The position numbers and the translations under genes are program-made. From positions 1-50,853 of IMG/VR virus record IMGVR_UViG_3300037468_000175: a DNA stretch of 50,853 nt, one strand, 5' to 3'. This document shows, one piece after another, positions 39,597 through 45,989 of the stretch (its first letter is position 1; every line of letters begins with the position of its first letter). The notes under the pieces are model-generated. The model saw only the letters and a program-made list of their open reading frames with translations, made no database searches and was not told the origin of the DNA. Source of the stretch: a virus (lineage: Duplodnaviria; Caudoviricetes).

Positions 39597-39614
39597 CGCA
39601 CTTTGACAGGGTAA

Positions 39615-39678
39615 GGCAGTTGGGGTTGGGAGCGTATCGTTGAGGCGGGTAATGGAGTTATAAGGTGCGTTTCGGTTT
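39615..39678 (+). ncRNA. Solo GGCA-(GGY/GTY-NN)12 guide-like unit
   Basis: Same grammar as the 41223-42070 array; intergenic; flanked by hairpins. Confidence 0.65.
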
Positions 39679-39721
39679 TTGATAGTGGGGCGTAGTTATA
39701 CGCCCTACCAATCAGGAACTT

Positions 39722-39898
39722 ATGCCAATACAATATTGCGAGATATGCGACCAGTACATTGACCTAGATACAGACGTGGAACATTTTGACGACCACTTAC
39801 CGGAGTATTTTTCTTGGAAGGACGCGTATAAGCATATGTTGAATAGTGCCGATAAGTTGATAGCCGGCCTCAAGGAGTCAAAATCCAATGGCACTTGA
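39722..39898 (+). CDS. Small zinc-finger protein (58 aa, not in ORF track)
   Basis: CEIC...H...H. Confidence 0.5.
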   Translation: MPIQYCEICDQYIDLDTDVEHFDDHLPEYFSWKDAYKHMLNSADKLIAGLKESKSNGT

Positions 39899-40076
39899 AC
39901 GTATAATCCATTGGCTAAAGGGAGAAAAGCCGTTTTCGACGTATTACGTGATGTTTGAAGTAGACGGAGAGATATACACTACCAATGACTTGCCGAAAGA
40001 GATGGCTGACCACCTTGCTACTCAAATAGGGGGGATAGTAATGCCTACGGAGTTACCCAATGAAAAAGAAGTGTGA
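39888..40076 (+). CDS. Hypothetical protein
   Basis: SD AAGGAG. Confidence 0.5.
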   Translation: MALERIIHWLKGEKPFSTYYVMFEVDGEIYTTNDLPKEMADHLATQIGGIVMPTELPNEKEV

Positions 40077-40251
40077 ACACGATTGGCACGAAGACCCGCT
40101 ATTCAAGTCGGGGGCAATTCGGATAGTAGCCGGAACTCCCAAAGCATTAGGGGAGGAAACTATTGACGTATGTAGTGAGTGCGGAGAACGGCGGTACCGG
40201 GTGATTAAGAAGTTGGGTTCGTTAGTTGATATGTACAAAGACACCCTATAA
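40060..40251 (+). CDS. Small zinc-ribbon protein
   Basis: C.H.W...CSECG. Confidence 0.55.
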   Translation: MKKKCEHDWHEDPLFKSGAIRIVAGTPKALGEETIDVCSECGERRYRVIKKLGSLVDMYKDTL

Positions 40252-40296
40252 TATATTTCCTCGAGGGCTTGGGTTATAATACCCTCAAGAAGGGGG

Positions 40297-40494
40297 GTGA
40301 TTTATATTAACACGCGTTTTCAAAACAAATATCTGGACAAAGACGTTAAGCGTATGGTCGAGAAGGGTTATATGGACACCGGTTTAGCCCTGACCAGCGA
40401 TGGTATTCGGTTCTTATGCGAATACGTTTATGAGGTCAACAAAAAGGACATTAGCAAATTGCTCAATGACCAAGACCTCAACAAACCTTACTAG
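40297..40494 (+). CDS. Hypothetical protein
   Basis: SD AAGGGGGGTGA; exact start uncertain. Confidence 0.5.
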   Translation: MIYINTRFQNKYLDKDVKRMVEKGYMDTGLALTSDGIRFLCEYVYEVNKKDISKLLNDQDLNKPY

Positions 40495-40525
40495 CAATTA
40501 GCACTCACAGAAGGGGGGTGATAAT

Positions 40526-41194
40526 ATGGCAGAAATCATCCAGATACCAGCACCAAACATTCAAATGATTGAGGTCGAGATTAAAGGGACTACTCCCTTA
40601 ATGTTCCACAAATGGTCGGAAAAGGCCAAGGCACAGATAAGGGATAAGCAACAGAAAAAGGCCAAGACCGGCAGACCCAAGAGAGAGCCGGAGGTCGAGT
40701 ACCTGAACTCGTTTTACTATACGCAAGACGGGTTCGTCTCTTTCCCCGCATTGGCGATTAAACAAGCAATTGTGGGGGCGGCTCGGTCAATTGATGGCTT
40801 ACAAATGACGATTATCCGGGGCAACATCTTCGTCGTAGGCGACGTTGATGGCCTGGTACCCGTCTTGGTTGACGGCAAGCCCGTCAAACCCAGTAAGAAG
40901 CTGACACCAGCTAACGGTACTCAAGGTGAAAACATTTTCGCGATTGATACGGCCAACACTAACTTGGTAATGATGGAACATATGGTCAGGGTTGCTCGAG
41001 GGGCAGCCGACCTGCGTTACCGAGGGGCGATTAAGTCTTGGTCAATGAACTTGATGGTCAAGTTTAACGCCGATATGTTCAGCCAAGAACAAGTCGTGAA
41101 TCTCATCCAAACCGCAGGTTTCTCTCAAGGACTCGGCGAATGGAGGCCGGAACGGAACGGCGACAGCGGAACATTTGAGGTCGTACAATCTTAA
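40526..41194 (+). CDS. RAMP/Cas7-like RNA-binding effector (Vipr-like)
   Basis: N-terminal strand IEVEIKGTTPLMFH; C-terminal Gly-rich loop AGFSQGLGEWRPERNGDSGTFEV; directly upstream of the pentamer array. Confidence 0.7.
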   Translation: MAEIIQIPAPNIQMIEVEIKGTTPLMFHKWSEKAKAQIRDKQQKKAKTGRPKREPEVEYLNSFYYTQDGFVSFPALAIKQAIVGAARSIDGLQMTIIRGNIFVVGDVDGLVPVLVDGKPVKPSKKLTPANGTQGENIFAIDTANTNLVMMEHMVRVARGAADLRYRGAIKSWSMNLMVKFNADMFSQEQVVNLIQTAGFSQGLGEWRPERNGDSGTFEVVQS

Positions 41195-41195
41195 A

Positions 41196-41226
41196 TGCCT
41201 GGGGCGCCTGCCCGCCCCACAAGGCA
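41196..41226 (+). promoter_or_regulatory. Leader hairpin of the guide array
   Basis: TGGGGCG-CCTGCC-CGCCCCA stem-loop, extendable by TGCCT/AGGCA. Confidence 0.6.
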
Positions 41227-42070
41227 GTCGTGGAATGGAGTTGTACGATTCGGAGAGGCGGGGGAGGATTGCCAGTAGTGGTTACGAGAGGCCCGGTGCG
41301 TTGTCTGGGGCTCGTTGGGGCGGTGAAATGGTTTGGCAGTAAAGGAATGTTATGTCGGGTACCGGACGTATTTGGTTGGTTTGATTAGGCAGTAGGGGAG
41401 AGTTTTGGTTGGTAAGGTTGGAACGTCTTGTTGAGGTATGGAGTGCCAGTAGAGGAGAGGCAATGTACGGCGGGGCGGGGAGATGAGTTGCTTAGTATGG
41501 CGAGTCACGGCGGGGCAGTCGGGGATGGGTGCGTGACGGAGTGTGTAGGTCGGGCAGTATAGGTGGGTCGAGGCATAATGGGGTTCGTGGCGGTAAGGTC
41601 GGTACGGCAGTCAAGGACCGGATAGGTGGGGTTCGGAAAGGCAATCCGAGTCGGGGTATGTTAGGGCAGTCGTGGCAGTTCACGTCGAGGCCGTATCAGG
41701 CGAAATAAGGTGAGGCGGGGCCAGTTTTGGCAGTAGGGGTAAGGCACGGCTTGGACATTAAGCGGTGGGGTGCCGAATGGCGAGGACTGGCAGTTAGGGA
41801 ACGGAGTGTTAAGGTGTTGTTCGCCTGGGCTGTAAAGGTGTGTATCGGTACTGCAAGGCACTGTTTGGCCGGGACGGGTTGGCCGAGGTCGGGCAGTTAT
41901 GGGGGGCACGGTTCTGGTAGGCAGGTCTAGGAAAGGCAGTCGGGGAGAGTATGGGAGGTATTGGGAACGTAATGGTGTGTTACCGCGAGGTGAGGCAAGG
42001 TTTCGCCAGGATGGAATGGTTGGGCAGTAATGGGTGGTACGGTTGGACAGGTTCGTCAATTTAAGGCAGG
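41223..42070 (+). ncRNA. Array of ~15 guide-like RNA units: GGCA/GCCA delimiter + 7-17 (GGY/GTY/NGY)-NN pentamers
   Basis: GGCAGT/GCCAGT at 41223, 41271, 41335, 41388, 41445, 41514, 41553, 41606, 41665, 41729, 41789, 41892, 41935, 42023 (GGCTGT at 41828, GGCAGG at 42065); strong 5-nt G periodicity; no credible ORF. Confidence 0.85.
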
Positions 42071-42132
42071 GCTTGGTTATGTACCTAGACTAGATTATGA
42101 ATATAATCAAATTAGGAAGGGAGGTGATTCAA

Positions 42133-42552
42133 ATGGATGAAGTAATCAATATCTTAAAAGCAATTGAACAACGTGATGGCGTTCTCCGACCGGAAGTGTT
42201 GGTGGACGAGGCGTCTCAGTCTTCCCATCCCTTACACGGGTACTTTGAATGGGAGGATACGGAAGCCGCCCGCAAGTGGCGCATACATCAAGCCAGGACT
42301 ATGATTATCAAGGTCAAGGTGAGAATAGCTGAAACCACGACCCAGGCATTTCACAACGTCAGGGTCGAGATAAACAAAGTCCCGGTGAGGGGCTATTTTT
42401 CTACCGAACGGGTCTTATCCGATAAGGATATGCTCGGCCAAGTCCTAGCCAGGGCGTTGGATGAATTGGAATACTGGCAGAAAAAATACGAGACTATCAA
42501 AGAATTGGCCGGTATTATCAACCACGATGTCCTCAGCCAAGTCAAAAAATGA
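42133..42552 (+). CDS. Conserved accessory protein of the array locus
   Basis: SD AAGGGAGGTGA; G.L.PE..VD.A....HPLH..FEW.D..AA..WR..QAR..I motif. Confidence 0.65.
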   Translation: MDEVINILKAIEQRDGVLRPEVLVDEASQSSHPLHGYFEWEDTEAARKWRIHQARTMIIKVKVRIAETTTQAFHNVRVEINKVPVRGYFSTERVLSDKDMLGQVLARALDELEYWQKKYETIKELAGIINHDVLSQVKK

Positions 42553-42866
42553 ACAAACTCCAACGGATTCTCTACCAAGTGGCGCACCGTGAATTGGGTG
42601 AATTGGAAGCCGAACGGCAGATTGAGGCGTTATATTCCAGTCAGTATTTGGAAGGAATTAGGGTGGGAATGAAACCGCCCAAAGAGTACGAGTGTTTATG
42701 CGCCAGGTGTGGCCACCTCTTGTTTCCGCAAGCCGATACAGATAAACTAAATGGCATAACCGCAACAAAGGGTACTTGTCAGCGGTGTGGGACTAAGGAC
42801 ACATTCTTAGTTCCGGTCAATGATTTTATGTATGCTAGCGGAGAAGGAGGCGGTGTATGGGATTAA
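42549..42866 (+). CDS. Zinc-ribbon protein
   Basis: CARCG...CQRCG. Confidence 0.55.
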   Translation: MNKLQRILYQVAHRELGELEAERQIEALYSSQYLEGIRVGMKPPKEYECLCARCGHLLFPQADTDKLNGITATKGTCQRCGTKDTFLVPVNDFMYASGEGGGVWD

Positions 42867-43606
42867 AGGAGTATCGGGATATAGAGTCGCTACACATTTG
42901 GGAAAAGAATCCCAGGACTATATCCCAAAAAGACTTTGGCCGTCTCAAGAAGCAACTGAAAAAGTTAGGGCAGTATAAGCCATTGGTCATTACCGAGGAT
43001 GGTACGGTTTTGGGCGGTAATATGCGCCTCAAGGCGTACCAAGAGATGGGAATTAAGGACATCTGGGTCTCGGTAGTCGAGGCCGATACGGAAGTTAAGA
43101 AAGTCGAGTACGCCTTATCGGATAATGACCGAGCCGGTACGTACATTGAAGATGATTTGTTGGCTTTGGTGAAGGATTTAGACCTGGACTTGGACTTATA
43201 CGCGGTAGACCTGGGAGAGATGTCTTCCTTATCAGATTTGTTCAAGGACCAAGAGGTGTTCGATGAGGACTACAGTGACAACCTCGGGGAGATAGTGTAC
43301 GAACCGAAGGAGACCCACCACAAAGTCTCGGATTTGTACCAACCGGACAATAAATACGACGCCGATATCGAGAGTCTGGAGAACGAGGAATTGAAACAGA
43401 TGCTTCGGGCCAGGGCGGCTAACTTCCATAACTTCAACTACGAAAAGATTGCCGATTATTATGCCTACCAGGCGACACCGGAGGAACAGCGGGTGTTTGA
43501 GAAACTGGCGTTGGTCCTCTTGGACCGGAATAAACTTATCGAGAATGGCTTTTCTAAACTCATAGACAAGATTGACCTGGGAGAGACAGAATATGAAGCT
43601 GAGTGA
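42857..43606 (+). CDS. ParB-like nuclease domain protein
   Basis: W.KNPR.I, L...G..KPLVI, GGNMRL.A, DN..AG. Confidence 0.8.
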   Translation: MGLKEYRDIESLHIWEKNPRTISQKDFGRLKKQLKKLGQYKPLVITEDGTVLGGNMRLKAYQEMGIKDIWVSVVEADTEVKKVEYALSDNDRAGTYIEDDLLALVKDLDLDLDLYAVDLGEMSSLSDLFKDQEVFDEDYSDNLGEIVYEPKETHHKVSDLYQPDNKYDADIESLENEELKQMLRARAANFHNFNYEKIADYYAYQATPEEQRVFEKLALVLLDRNKLIENGFSKLIDKIDLGETEYEAE

Positions 43607-44453
43607 AGCGTATGAGAAACTTAACACCATTTACATCATCTCCAAAGGCAGACCCAGGTGCCTGACGGCTCGGACACTAACCAGGATTGGCTACCCAGGC
43701 CAATGGTTTATTGTCTGCGGCAATAATGACAATACTATCGAGAAGTACCAACAGAATTGGGGTAAGGACAAGATACTGATATTTGATTGGTATGAGGAAG
43801 TGAAACATACGGATTTTATGGACAACCTGGGAGTTGAGAAGTATTCGTCTGGGGCGGCACCAGTCAGGAACGCCACGATGGAGATTAGCCGTCAGCGGGG
43901 AGAGATACGGCATTGGCAACTGGATGACGACTATCCGGCTTTCGTTAAGTTCAATACCAAACGAAAGAAGTATGACCGGGTTAGGGATGGGAGGGTACTC
44001 CAGTTTGAAATGGCGAAGATTGCCCTATTCGGCTATGAGGCCGACCTGACTAACGTGGGGTACCAACCCACCTCCAATACCTACCCCGACCAAGCATTTA
44101 ATTTCACCAAGCGGGTGTTCAACGCCCATAACCTACCAAGCGACCCGGATAAGTTTGTCCGGTGGCGTGCCCGAATGAATGACGATACGGTGAACGCTTT
44201 AGATGTATTGGTGGGCGGTGGTTATGAGATATCGGTCAATTATTTGGGAATGGGTACCATCAAAACACAGACAGAAACCGGGGGGAATACTGACCTGTAT
44301 AAGGACAACGGAACGGTTATGAAGACCGCCTATGCGGTTATGAGGTCGCCTAAATCCGTCTCTTTAGTGATTAAGTTCAAGCGTTACCACCACCAGAACA
44401 ATTGGGCTCCAGTTTCGCCCAAACTGATAAGAGACCATTATGCCCGATTATGA
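43593..44453 (+). CDS. TET/JBP-associated (GREB1-like) glycosyltransferase
   Basis: IYIISKGRP, GA...RN, HWQLDDD, W..R.N.D, Q...GGNTD.Y, RYHH..N. Confidence 0.7.
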   Translation: MKLSEAYEKLNTIYIISKGRPRCLTARTLTRIGYPGQWFIVCGNNDNTIEKYQQNWGKDKILIFDWYEEVKHTDFMDNLGVEKYSSGAAPVRNATMEISRQRGEIRHWQLDDDYPAFVKFNTKRKKYDRVRDGRVLQFEMAKIALFGYEADLTNVGYQPTSNTYPDQAFNFTKRVFNAHNLPSDPDKFVRWRARMNDDTVNALDVLVGGGYEISVNYLGMGTIKTQTETGGNTDLYKDNGTVMKTAYAVMRSPKSVSLVIKFKRYHHQNNWAPVSPKLIRDHYARL

Positions 44454-45540
44454 TTATCTTATTGTAGGTGCCGGACTTTTTGGTTCAACTTTTGCTTATC
44501 AAATGACTAAGCAGGGGAAGCGGTGTCTGGTGATTGACCAGCGGTCGCATACCGGAGGCAACTGCCACACCAGCAACCAGGATGGGATTATTGTCCACGA
44601 TTACGGAGCTCATATCTTCCATACCAGCAACCAACGGGTATGGGATTTTGTTAACCAATTCGGGGAGTTCAATCATTATATCAACCAACCTATCGCTATG
44701 GTGGAAGGTGTACCTTACAATATGCCGTTCAATATGAATATGTTTAGCCGGGTGTTCGGGGTGACCAAACCGAGTGAGGCATTCGATATTATCGAGGAGG
44801 AGACGAAGCCGTATCAAACCTTAGTACCGAAGTCATTGGAGGACCAAGCCCTCCAGATGGTCGGCAAAACCATTTTTGAAAAGTTCATCAGGGGATACAG
44901 CGAAAAGCAATGGGGTAGCCCCTGTTCCGACTTGCCGGCCAGTTTTATCAAGCGGTTGCCGTTGCGGTTCACTTACGATAATAATTATTATGACGATACT
45001 TACCAGGGCATACCAATAGACGGATACTCCGGCCTATTTGACCGGATGCTCAGGGGAATAGAGGTGGAGGTGAACGTCAAATACAATGAGGTAAAGAGCC
45101 ACATTGAGGCCAAGAAAACTATTTACACCGGAATGATTGACGAGTTCTTTGACTTCCAGTTCGGTTCACCGGAGTACCGGAGTCTGCATTTCGTTCACCT
45201 GTATAAGGATTGCTACAACTACCAAGGGTGTGCTGTGATTAACTACCCAGGTCTTGATGTGCCGTACACCCGCAGTATCGAGCATAAGCATTTCGCTTTG
45301 GACACCACCTCACCGACCACGATAGTCACGTATGAGTTCCCCGTACCTTACAAGGAAGGTCTTATCCCCTATTATCCGGTAGGCAATAGCCGAGATGTCA
45401 AGATTTATGACAAATATTTGACATTAGCTTCACAGATGTCAAATATAGTTTTTGCTGGTAGATTGGGAAGTTACCAGTACTACGATATGGATGACACGAT
45501 TGACCACGCCTTACAGTTAGCCGATAAGGAATTGCAATGA
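44440..45540 (+). CDS. glf: UDP-galactopyranose mutase
   Basis: YLIVGAGLFG, GGNC, H.YGAHIFHT, Y..KQWG, RLPLR..YDNNY..D.YQGIP, YTR.IEHKHF, PYYP, GRLG.YQYYDMD. Confidence 0.95.
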   Translation: MPDYDYLIVGAGLFGSTFAYQMTKQGKRCLVIDQRSHTGGNCHTSNQDGIIVHDYGAHIFHTSNQRVWDFVNQFGEFNHYINQPIAMVEGVPYNMPFNMNMFSRVFGVTKPSEAFDIIEEETKPYQTLVPKSLEDQALQMVGKTIFEKFIRGYSEKQWGSPCSDLPASFIKRLPLRFTYDNNYYDDTYQGIPIDGYSGLFDRMLRGIEVEVNVKYNEVKSHIEAKKTIYTGMIDEFFDFQFGSPEYRSLHFVHLYKDCYNYQGCAVINYPGLDVPYTRSIEHKHFALDTTSPTTIVTYEFPVPYKEGLIPYYPVGNSRDVKIYDKYLTLASQMSNIVFAGRLGSYQYYDMDDTIDHALQLADKELQ

Positions 45541-45989
45541 AACCCAAGAAACTCCCTACGGGTAGGCCACCCAAACTCAGTTTAGAGCCGGAGATAATGG
45601 ACAAGCTGGAGAGTGTTCTCCGTCTGGGGGTGTCAGACAAAATGGCTTGCGAGTATGCAAATGTCTCTAGGGATACGTATTATAAGTGGCTAAAAATTGA
45701 CAAATCTTTTTCCGACAGAATGATGACGGCCAAGAACTACGCCAGGATAGCGGCTGGACAGGTGGTCGTTCAGGCCATTGTGAAGGACAAGGACGTGGCC
45801 TCGGCCAGGTGGTGGTTAGAGAAGAAACACTCGGACGAGTTTAAGAGCAAGCCGGACTTTGTAACCGAGAACAAGACACAAATTAACTTCTTTAGCAACT
45901 ATGAGCAACTTGCCGAACAACTCTATCGCCTCTCTCGCCACGTTGTCCAAGGCGGACATCTTGAACCGAATCAAGACCTTAACAAGTGA
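45537..45989 (+). CDS. Terminase small subunit
   Basis: GRPPKL, AC..A.VSR.TYY.W, A..W.LE+....EF. Confidence 0.8.
   Translation: MKPKKLPTGRPPKLSLEPEIMDKLESVLRLGVSDKMACEYANVSRDTYYKWLKIDKSFSDRMMTAKNYARIAAGQVVVQAIVKDKDVASARWWLEKKHSDEFKSKPDFVTENKTQINFFSNYEQLAEQLYRLSRHVVQGGHLEPNQDLNK

What the first reader, a model, noticed from the sequence alone, without database searches (positions are those of the whole stretch)
41227..42064. NN dinucleotides decode as codon positions 1-2 (wobble skipped) of conserved protein motifs
Seen: concatenating the NN of each unit as NNx-NNx gives recognisable peptides. The best strict-pentamer cases are 41832-41891 (AA GT TC AC AA AC TT CG CG TG GA CG = KVSTKTLRRW[DE]R) and 41669-41728 (VST[DE]RQ[DE]K[DE]G). 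Others need an occasional 4- or 6-nt step. Inference: the guides recognise a gapped target that skips every third base, aligned to the wobble position. This would make them insensitive to synonymous escape and let one guide hit a whole gene family. The NNs equal the sense strand, so a + strand RNA would pair with the template DNA strand rather than mRNA, implying dsDNA binding and transcriptional silencing. Caveat: two-base codons are degenerate and I chose residues by eye.
Basis: partly seen in the sequence, partly recalled or inferred. Interest (0 to 1): 0.95.

Follow-up and report, generated by a model that had tools for sequence, protein, structure and literature searches.

The report
Phage VIPR gapped-guide RNA array

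Summary
Window 41223-42075 is a G-rich non-coding array of about 15 units. Each unit is built of 5-nt steps (H-N-N-G-G), and units are separated by a 4-nt GGCA|GT step. It lies between a stand-alone Cas7-like gene (40526-41194) and a small conserved partner gene (42133-42552). A profile of the Cas7-like protein family hits the solved 'SUSP1 Vipr protein' at E 2e-12.

VIPR preprints (bioRxiv 10.64898/2026.04.26.720920, .720927, 2026.10.15.759431) describe GGY/NN guides that bind dsDNA by a 1-nt-skip rule, with the skipped base on the codon wobble position.

I tested the rule here:
- **Unit 41277-41335.** Read as NNx, it exactly matches at least 120 genome sites and 35 viral sites, all in frame on the HsdM motif DPACGSGGM[FL]. 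Skips of 0, 2 and 3 nt gave 0, 0 and 0 viral hits. A backward control gave 0 of 401 genomes against 36 of 401.
Its core matches 36 metagenome sites, 35 of them encoding VSTKTLRRW[DE] of MerR-type HTHs. Its two end dinucleotides never matched.
It got no support.

This scan has already noted VIPR loci in at least 406 other genomes. This is a new member of a known kind.

The parts
39612..39716 (+). Solo vrRNA-like unit. It opens with GGCAGT, runs through 12 five-nt steps, and ends with a GC-rich hairpin.
   Evidence: Read directly from the sequence. It has the same grammar as the array. Its target was not searched.
40526..41194 (+). vipr: a stand-alone Cas7-like RAMP protein of 222 aa (P0001).
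   Evidence: phmmer hit the PDB chain 36pp_D 'SUSP1 Vipr protein' at E 5.8e-5. A profile of 24 homologues hit it at E 2.2e-12 over about 130 residues, and it was the only hit at E<=0.01. The AF2 model has pLDDT 79 and pTM 0.76. Its top Foldseek hits are type VII Cas7, Csm3 and Cmr4, from E 2e-6. R166, E205, W206 and R207 align with SUSP1 R138, D177, W178 and R179 (residue roles).
41201..41218 (+). A 6-bp GC hairpin between the vipr stop codon and the first GGCAGT.
   Evidence: Seen by eye. It was not folded or otherwise tested.
41223..42075 (+). vrRNA array of about 15 head-to-tail units of 7-17 pentamers (H-N-N-G-G). Units are separated by a 4-nt step GGCA|GT.
   Evidence: GCAGT occurs 13 times in this 0.85 kb against 38 times in the other 50 kb. 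There was no Rfam match at gathering threshold.
41277..41335 (+). Guide unit whose 12 NN spell codon positions 1-2 of VYDPACGSGGM[FL], which is HsdM-type N6-methylase motif I.
   Evidence: All 12 NN match at 29 of 120 genome sites and at 6 of 35 viral sites.
41671..41720 (+). Its target is unknown.
   Evidence: Searches gave no support. The unit is missing in one low-depth contig of one sediment run, which skips 41681-41735.
41834..41893 (+). Guide unit of 12 strict pentamers. NN 2-11 spell VSTKTLRRW[DE], a MerR-type HTH motif.
42133..42552 (+). Candidate vipr-accessory gene (vap) of 139 aa counted from the ATG behind a GGAGG site.
   Evidence: Homologues lie within 1.3 kb downstream of vipr in 8 of 26 related loci. 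It matches phrog_15946, of unknown function. There was no Pfam hit. No fold match reached E<=0.001.

Best explanation
The region is the guide-RNA array of a VIPR (Viral Interference Programmable Repeat) system in an uncultivated phage from sediment metagenomes.

The likely mechanism has these steps:
- The + strand is transcribed and cut or trimmed at the GGCA|GT steps into about 15 vrRNAs (inferred).
- Vipr protomers (40526-41194) bind one per pentamer. They sequester the G-G-H scaffold bases and present the two variable bases (inferred from the SUSP1 structures).
- The presented dinucleotides pair with a DNA strand while every third target base is flipped out. A guide therefore reads codon positions 1-2 and ignores the wobble base. 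The sequence-match part of this step is shown here for two guides.
- Binding to dsDNA blocks transcription of the target gene (literature only).

At least one guide is matched to the invariant motif I of type I restriction-modification methylase genes. Another is matched to the recognition helix of MerR-type HTH domains, which are found on IS607-like serine recombinases and Mu-like transposases. The array is therefore probably aimed at defence and mobile-element genes of hosts or rival elements.
For: **Protein.**
- P0001 is homologous to the solved SUSP1 Vipr protein.
- Its model folds as a Cas7-type RAMP.

**Synteny.**
- 22 of 26 related viral loci carry a GG-period-5 tract on the vipr strand, mostly directly after vipr.
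- The unit boundary there is GGCA|GG.

**Array grammar.**

**Skip rule and phase.**
- Skip-rule test.
- Backward control.
- Codon phase and wobble-type variation at skipped bases.

**Target families.** Pfam found MerR in 6 of 6 ORFs tested. One also carried Resolvase, and one carried the Mu-transposase C-terminal domain.

**Self-targeting.** No unit matched the phage's own genome better than its own shuffled-order controls, as the first preprint reports for its systems.

**Composition.** The first variable base is 70% purine, like a first codon position.

**Mechanism.** It comes from the papers read.
Against: - **Expression.** Nothing shows expression or processing. No RNA run holds the locus.
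- **Host and targets.** The host and the true targets are unknown.
- **Coverage.** Only 2 of about 15 units found matches.
  - Units 41229-41271 and 41669-41720 found none.
  - The best-case unit matches only 10 of its 12 NN anywhere I looked.
- **Motif matches are not targets.** Hits to pan-bacterial motifs show that a guide could bind such genes. They do not show that it does, or that this benefits the phage.
- **Scaffold.** It departs from the published GGY.
  - Position 1 is A in 28% of steps.
  - Many steps end in GT or TG.
  - 26 of 185 steps are 4 nt long.
- **Irregular linkers.** The HsdM-matching unit keeps register only if linkers of 2 and 4 nt are tolerated. No paper I read tests this.
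- **Partner gene.** Its fold is unassigned.
Confidence: 0.9

Rival explanations
1. The locus is a VIPR relic or an orphan array. The grammar and the motif matches survive from past function or from how guides arise, but the RNAs no longer direct anything.
For: - Many scaffold positions are degenerate, with GT/TG ends and 26 four-nt steps.
- The HsdM unit has irregular linkers.
- Two tested units found no target.
Against: - The vipr ORF is intact, and the residues aligned to the GGY-binding residues of SUSP1 are conserved.
- A 12-of-12 NN match to a real motif is kept.
- The locus is near-identical in four sediment runs. Of 4 array SNPs, 3 fall on NN positions and none falls on a GG position, though the numbers are small.
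Confidence: 0.06
2. The peptide decodings are a by-eye artefact of a degenerate two-base code. The array is a G-rich structural or protein-sponge element (TRAP/CsrA-like RNA sponge, G-quadruplex or R-loop DNA).
For: - I first thought of TRAP-like (G/U)AG-N2-3 repeats, from recall.
- Two decodings (41229-41271 and 41669-41720) found no support.
Against: - One pattern gave 36 of 401 genomes against 0 of 401 for the backward control.
- The same pattern gave 35 hits at 1-nt skip against 0, 0 and 0 at the other skips.
- Every hit is in codon phase.
- The adjacent gene is a Vipr homologue.
Confidence: 0.02
3. The guides act on RNA (antisense or RNA cleavage, like type III CRISPR Cas7 filaments) rather than on DNA.
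For: - The nearest solved folds outside VIPR are RNA-targeting Csm3, Cmr4 and type VII Cas7.
- SUSP1 VIPR can form a guide-RNA duplex in vitro.
Against: - For both matched units the NN string equals the coding strand, so the guide has the same sense as the mRNA.
- The published assays show repression from either DNA strand, and filament completion needs a DNA third strand.
Confidence: 0.02

Closest known systems
Type II VIPR of Escherichia phage SUSP1 (Vipr + vrRNAs + Vap1; bioRxiv 10.64898/2026.04.26.720920 and .720927)
   Same: - A lone RAMP protein that is homologous by sequence profile.
- 5-nt repeats with a fixed GG and a variable NN.
- The 1-nt-skip reading, aligned to the wobble position.
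- A small partner gene.
- One solo unit upstream and an array downstream of vipr.
- Carried on a phage.
   Different: - There is no conserved 3' tail or pseudoknot after each repeat tract. Units abut through a 4-nt GGCA|GT step.
- About 15 guides here against 4 in SUSP1.
- Position 1 is H (A 28%), not Y.
- D177 is replaced by E.
- The protein is too distant for tblastn (one search found no Escherichia phage).
- The partner gene has no detectable similarity to anything solved.
VIPR 'staggered' arrays and NNNGG-type repeats (same preprint; legend of fig. S18 and methods section 20, seen)
   Same: The array is continuous, and the end of one guide marks the start of the next. The scaffold has a relaxed first position.
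   Different: I could not see the figures or the data tables because supplements are closed. I therefore cannot assign this locus to one of the seven types or say whether its clade is already listed.
Class 1 CRISPR Cas7 backbone filaments (type III Csm3/Cmr4, type VII Cas7)
   Same: The fold is the same. One protomer binds per repeat of the guide, and a thumb breaks the duplex periodically.
   Different: - There is no repeat-spacer array.
- No other cas genes were found among the ten flanking ORFs scanned.
- The period is 5 with 2 bases read, not 6 with 5 read.
- The guides are hard-coded.
Earlier notes of this scan on other genomes (for example e1-5345848 and e1-5205340)
   Same: VIPR arrays whose guides spell conserved motifs of type I restriction or DNA-methylase genes.
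   Different: These are other phages and other guides. They are unchecked AI notes. A later check of one note left what was seen standing but lowered the bold 'panel against many' reading.

Membership tests
VIPR system | Stand-alone Vipr protein: a RAMP homologous to the described Vipr | tested here: met
   The profile of 24 homologues hit the SUSP1 Vipr chain at E 2.2e-12, the only PDB hit at E<=0.01. The single sequence hit it at E 5.8e-5. The fold hits Cas7-type RAMPs.
VIPR system | G-loop and thumb residues that hold the GGY bases (SUSP1 R138, D177, W178, R179) | tested here: met
   These residues align to R166, E205, W206 and R207. R166 and R207 are invariant and E205 is at least 90% conserved in 24 homologues. 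A second subclade has G in place of W.
VIPR system | At least 4 tandem YNNGG (GGY/NN) repeats next to vipr on the same strand | tested here: met
   There are about 185 steps in about 15 units. Position 1 is C/T in 68% of steps, A in 28% and G in 4%. This fits the relaxed NNNGG variant named in the preprint.
VIPR system | Targets are read with one skipped base per dinucleotide | tested here: met
   For unit 41277-41335 in viral contigs, skip 0, 1, 2 and 3 gave 0, 35, 0 and 0 stretches. Only one unit was tested for all four skips.
VIPR system | Skipped base falls on the codon wobble position | tested here: met
   The match is in frame at 120 of 120, 35 of 35 and 35 of 36 sites. Variation at skipped positions is of synonymous type.
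VIPR system | No self-targeting of the source contig | tested here: met
   No unit exceeded the maximum of its own 30 shuffled-order controls on the masked window.
VIPR system | Accessory vap gene | tested here: inconclusive
   The 139-aa neighbour has homologues beside vipr in 8 of 26 loci. No family or fold could be assigned.
VIPR system | vrRNAs are expressed, processed and bound by Vipr, and repress dsDNA targets | not testable with these tools
   This needs wet-lab work. No RNA run is listed as holding the locus.
VIPR type II (SUSP1 clade) | Each repeat tract is followed by an invariable 3' tail with a pseudoknot | tested here: not met
   Units are separated only by GGCA|GT. No conserved tail sequence lies between units.
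CRISPR-Cas class 1 | Repeat-spacer array and further cas genes | tested here: not met
   Tandem Repeats Finder found no such array. Pfam and PHROGs scans of ten flanking ORFs found no cas family.

The most novel reading that the evidence does not exclude
The phage carries broad-spectrum RNA-guided anti-defence. Because a guide reads only codon positions 1-2, a single hard-coded vrRNA matched to the invariant motif I of HsdM could silence type I restriction-modification operons in very different hosts or rival elements. It matches 36 of 401 sampled genomes of one phylum and 103 distinct sequences. A second guide would likewise hit MerR-HTH recombinase or transposase genes of many mobile elements. 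The 2-nt and 4-nt linkers in the HsdM guide would then show that the Vipr filament tolerates irregular scaffold lengths without losing target register.
Probability: 0.25. Interest if true: 0.6.

Novelty: new member of a known kind. Interest (0 to 1): 0.3.

Why it matters
That is a useful check that the code is legible without experiments.

For biology, the locus adds three things:
- A divergent, uncultivated-phage member with a tail-less, continuous array of about 15 guides.
- Direct evidence that the 1-nt-skip rule holds outside the clades tested experimentally.
- Two guides aimed at very widely conserved motifs, HsdM motif I and a MerR-type HTH.

The main text of the two VIPR papers I searched does not mention methylase or restriction genes as targets (0 occurrences of 'hsdM' and 'methyltransferase', and of 'methyl'). 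If guides against defence genes work, VIPR is an anti-defence tool as well as a weapon between mobile elements.

Tried and rejected
- **Rfam.** A gathering-threshold scan of the whole window found nothing.
- **Tandem repeats.** Tandem Repeats Finder does not see the array. Its only row there is a 24-nt period-10 stretch.
- **First periodicity scan.** A Fourier scan in 200-nt windows missed even the window's own array, because 4-nt steps break phase. I replaced it with a GG lag-5 count.
- **DNA similarity.** blastn of 39600-43600 against the phage collection found no match.
- **Host inference failed.**
  - DnaB-like helicase hits were at most 27.5% identical.
  - The portal protein hit 3 records at 23-28% identity.
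  - Glf hits were about 50% identical and spread over unrelated hosts.
- **Promoter and terminator scan.** It found no more sites than shuffled sequence.
- **RNA evidence.** No RNA holder is listed for the locus.
- **Other units against fetched loci.** No unit other than the one used to fetch the loci exceeded shuffled controls.
- **Solo unit.** Its row was mis-phased by my slicing and is void. The solo unit's target was never searched.
- **Partner protein.** I found no Pfam family, no fold match at E<=0.001, and only chance-level PDB sequence hits.
- **TRAP/CsrA-like sponge idea.** I dropped it once the Vipr hit appeared.

Full report
**What is there.**

Window 41223-42075 is non-coding, with + strand ORFs of only 52-67 aa. 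It is strongly G-skewed, with GC skew of 0.42-0.63 in the 200-nt windows that lie within it, against mostly 0.0-0.3 in the flanks.

It is periodic at 5 nt. G autocorrelation is 0.24 at lag 5 and 0.25 at lag 10, and -0.20 and -0.25 at lags 2 and 7. A dynamic-programming parse gives 158 five-nt, 26 four-nt and 1 six-nt steps.

Over 146 strict pentamers the composition is as follows:
- Position 1 is A .28, C .32, G .04, T .36.
- The two middle positions vary. The first is 70% purine.
- Positions 4 and 5 are G at .84 and .77.

GCAGT occurs 13 times in these 0.85 kb and 38 times in the remaining 50 kb. In the pentamer frame GGCAGT is a 4-nt step GGCA followed by GT. It divides the tract into about 15 units of 7-17 pentamers. 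A single further unit, followed by a GC-rich hairpin, lies at 39612-39716.

**What it belongs to.**

The upstream ORF 40526-41194 (P0001, 222 aa) has no Pfam family. It hits one solved chain, 36pp_D 'SUSP1 Vipr protein', at E 5.8e-5. A profile of 24 homologues from viral contigs (A1) hits the same chain at E 2.2e-12 over about 130 residues, and nothing else at E<=0.01.

The alignment puts R166, E205, W206 and R207 on SUSP1 R138, D177, W178 and R179. The structure preprint says those residues hold the two guanines and the pyrimidine of each repeat.

The AlphaFold model has pLDDT 79 and pTM 0.76. It finds Cas7-type RAMPs first: type VII Cas7, Csm3 and Cmr4, from E 2e-6, with 66 matches at E<=0.001. 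That structure library ends on 2026-04-08 and listed no VIPR entry among its matches.

**Literature.**

A search for 'Vipr' led to three preprints from one laboratory and a fourth that catalogues arrays.
- For 10.64898/2026.04.26.720920 I read the Results and methods sections 20, 26 and 27, plus passages found by term search.
- For 10.64898/2026.04.26.720927 I read part 1 of the Results.
- For 10.64898/2026.10.15.759431 I read the abstract and passages found by term search.

These papers describe the following:
- Vipr is a stand-alone RAMP.
- vrRNAs consist of 9-16 YNNGG repeats.
- A '1 nt skip rule' applies: each NN pairs with two target bases and the third is flipped out.
- Skip bases fall overwhelmingly on the codon wobble position.
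- The complex binds dsDNA and silences transcription from either strand.
- Natural targets lie in rival phages and satellites, including a recombinase active site that cannot escape by synonymous change.

**Comparative support.**

Using P0001 as query, 26 related loci were fetched from viral contigs. Of these, 22 carry a GG lag-5 tract on the vipr strand, mostly starting at the end of vipr. In several loci GGCAGG is the commonest 6-mer, which is the same GGCA 4-nt boundary.

This continuous, tail-less layout is unlike the SUSP1 type, where a tract is followed by a pseudoknot tail. It fits the preprint's 'staggered arrays', of which I saw only the legend of fig. S18.

Homologues of the downstream ORF (42133-42552) lie beside vipr in 8 of the 26 loci. 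These include the window's closest Vipr relatives, at 38-40% tblastn identity. I could not assign its fold or family.

tblastn also finds Vipr homologues annotated 'hypothetical protein' in 34 phage records: 27 Mycobacterium, 5 Gordonia, 1 cyanophage and 1 Pseudomonas.

**Testing the code on this array.**

I turned it into an NNx pattern of its last 10 dinucleotides.
- All 120 sites are in frame: DPACGSGGMF 116 times, DPACGSGGML 3 times and DPACGSGGIL once. They sit in an HsdM-like context, and only 1 of 120 has a stop codon nearby.
- 29 of the 120 sites also match the two upstream dinucleotides, so all 12 NN match.
- In an even sample of one phylum, 36 of 401 genomes have a match. The tool's backward-read control found 0 of 401.
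- In viral contigs the same ten dinucleotides gave 35 stretches with one skipped base. They gave 0 stretches with two, zero or three skipped bases.
- All 35 viral sites are in frame, and 6 match all 12 NN.
- The 120 genome sites are 103 distinct sequences. The skipped positions vary as third codon positions do, for example C/T after GA and only G after AT in 119 of 120.

- It gave no exact hit with 12 NN in viral contigs or with 11 NN in genomes.
- Its central 10 NN gave 36 sites in 34 metagenome contigs. Of these, 35 encode VSTKTLRRW[DE] near the N-terminus of proteins with the context LGVSTKTLRRW. One (L153) looks like a chance hit.
- Pfam finds MerR (PF00376) in 6 of 6 such ORFs tested out of the 34 contigs. 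One is a 201-aa MerR+Resolvase protein, which I read as IS607-like from recall. One also has a Mu-transposase C-terminal domain.
- None of the 36 sites matches the first or last dinucleotide of the guide. The true target, if it exists in these data, was therefore not found.

- It gave 0 exact hits in viral contigs.
- With up to 2 mismatches it gave 4 hits in 251 genomes against 0 for the control, close to the roughly 2.5 expected by chance.
- The three hits I read are not recombinase genes.

Unit 41229-41271 gave 0 hits in viral contigs.

No unit matches the phage's own genome better than its shuffled-order controls.

**Population data.**

The 2-kb locus is near-identical in contigs of four sediment or metagenome runs, two of which may be the source of this DNA. 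Six variable sites were listed: two in vipr and four in the array.
- Three of the four array sites fall on NN positions (41904, 41918, 41933), all in one unit.
- One falls on position 1 (41735).
- None falls on a GG position.

These numbers are too small for a test. One low-depth 60-nt contig skips 41681-41735. That removes most of one unit, with both ends of the gap lying just after a GCAGT.

**Verdict.**

This is a VIPR locus: vipr, a tail-less array of about 15 guides, a solo guide and a candidate accessory gene.
- **Shown here:** homology of the protein, the repeat grammar, synteny in relatives, the 1-nt skip, wobble phase and sense orientation for two guides, and the absence of self-matches.
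- **Inferred:** transcription of the + strand, processing at GGCA|GT, filament assembly, dsDNA binding and silencing, and that hsdM-type and MerR-HTH genes are real targets.
- **Not supported:** the recombinase and NYN decodings.

The principle is in print, and this scan has already noted VIPR-type loci in at least 406 genomes. Some of those notes report guides on restriction or methylase motifs. One such bold reading was later marked down. I therefore rate the locus a new member of a known kind, with modest interest.

Noticed in passing
window 41681-41735: One low-depth 60-nt contig of one sediment run joins 41680 to 41736. This deletes most of one guide unit, and both ends of the gap lie just after a GCAGT. 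It may be unit-level gain or loss by recombination at the boundary motif.
   Followed up: partly
window 41904, 41918, 41933: Three of the four array SNPs seen among natural variants fall on variable NN positions of a single unit (41898-41936). That guide may be diverging.
   Followed up: no
window 39612-39716: A solo guide unit lies 0.8 kb upstream of vipr. It is preceded by an ACCCT/AGGGT stem and followed by a GC-rich hairpin. My one local check of it was mis-phased and is void.
   Followed up: no
window 42857-45989: Four genes sit in a row: a ParB-like protein, a TET-associated glycosyltransferase (PF20691, E 3e-16), a UDP-galactopyranose mutase (PF03275, E 2e-69) and the small terminase. 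This suggests sugar hypermodification of the phage DNA.
   Followed up: no
L177:634-803 and L178:2095-2333: Two metagenome ORFs carry the MerR-type HTH twice in tandem, 141 and 210 nt apart. One guide would therefore have two sites in one gene.
   Followed up: no
alignment A1: The Vipr homologues split into two subclades by G-loop sequence: GxGEWRP, as in the window, and GICEGRP. The partner-gene homologue was found in 8 of the 26 loci, including L001, L003, L021 and L026, which carry the first kind.
   Followed up: partly
phage records: Vipr homologues annotated 'hypothetical protein' occur in 27 Mycobacterium and 5 Gordonia phage records. These are cultivable systems in which this clade could be tested.
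   Followed up: no
L005:4560-5200: One relative has a pentamer-like tract with mostly GT/TT in place of GG, and GTCAGA as its recurring motif. It fell below my GG-based detector and may be a non-canonical scaffold.
   Followed up: no
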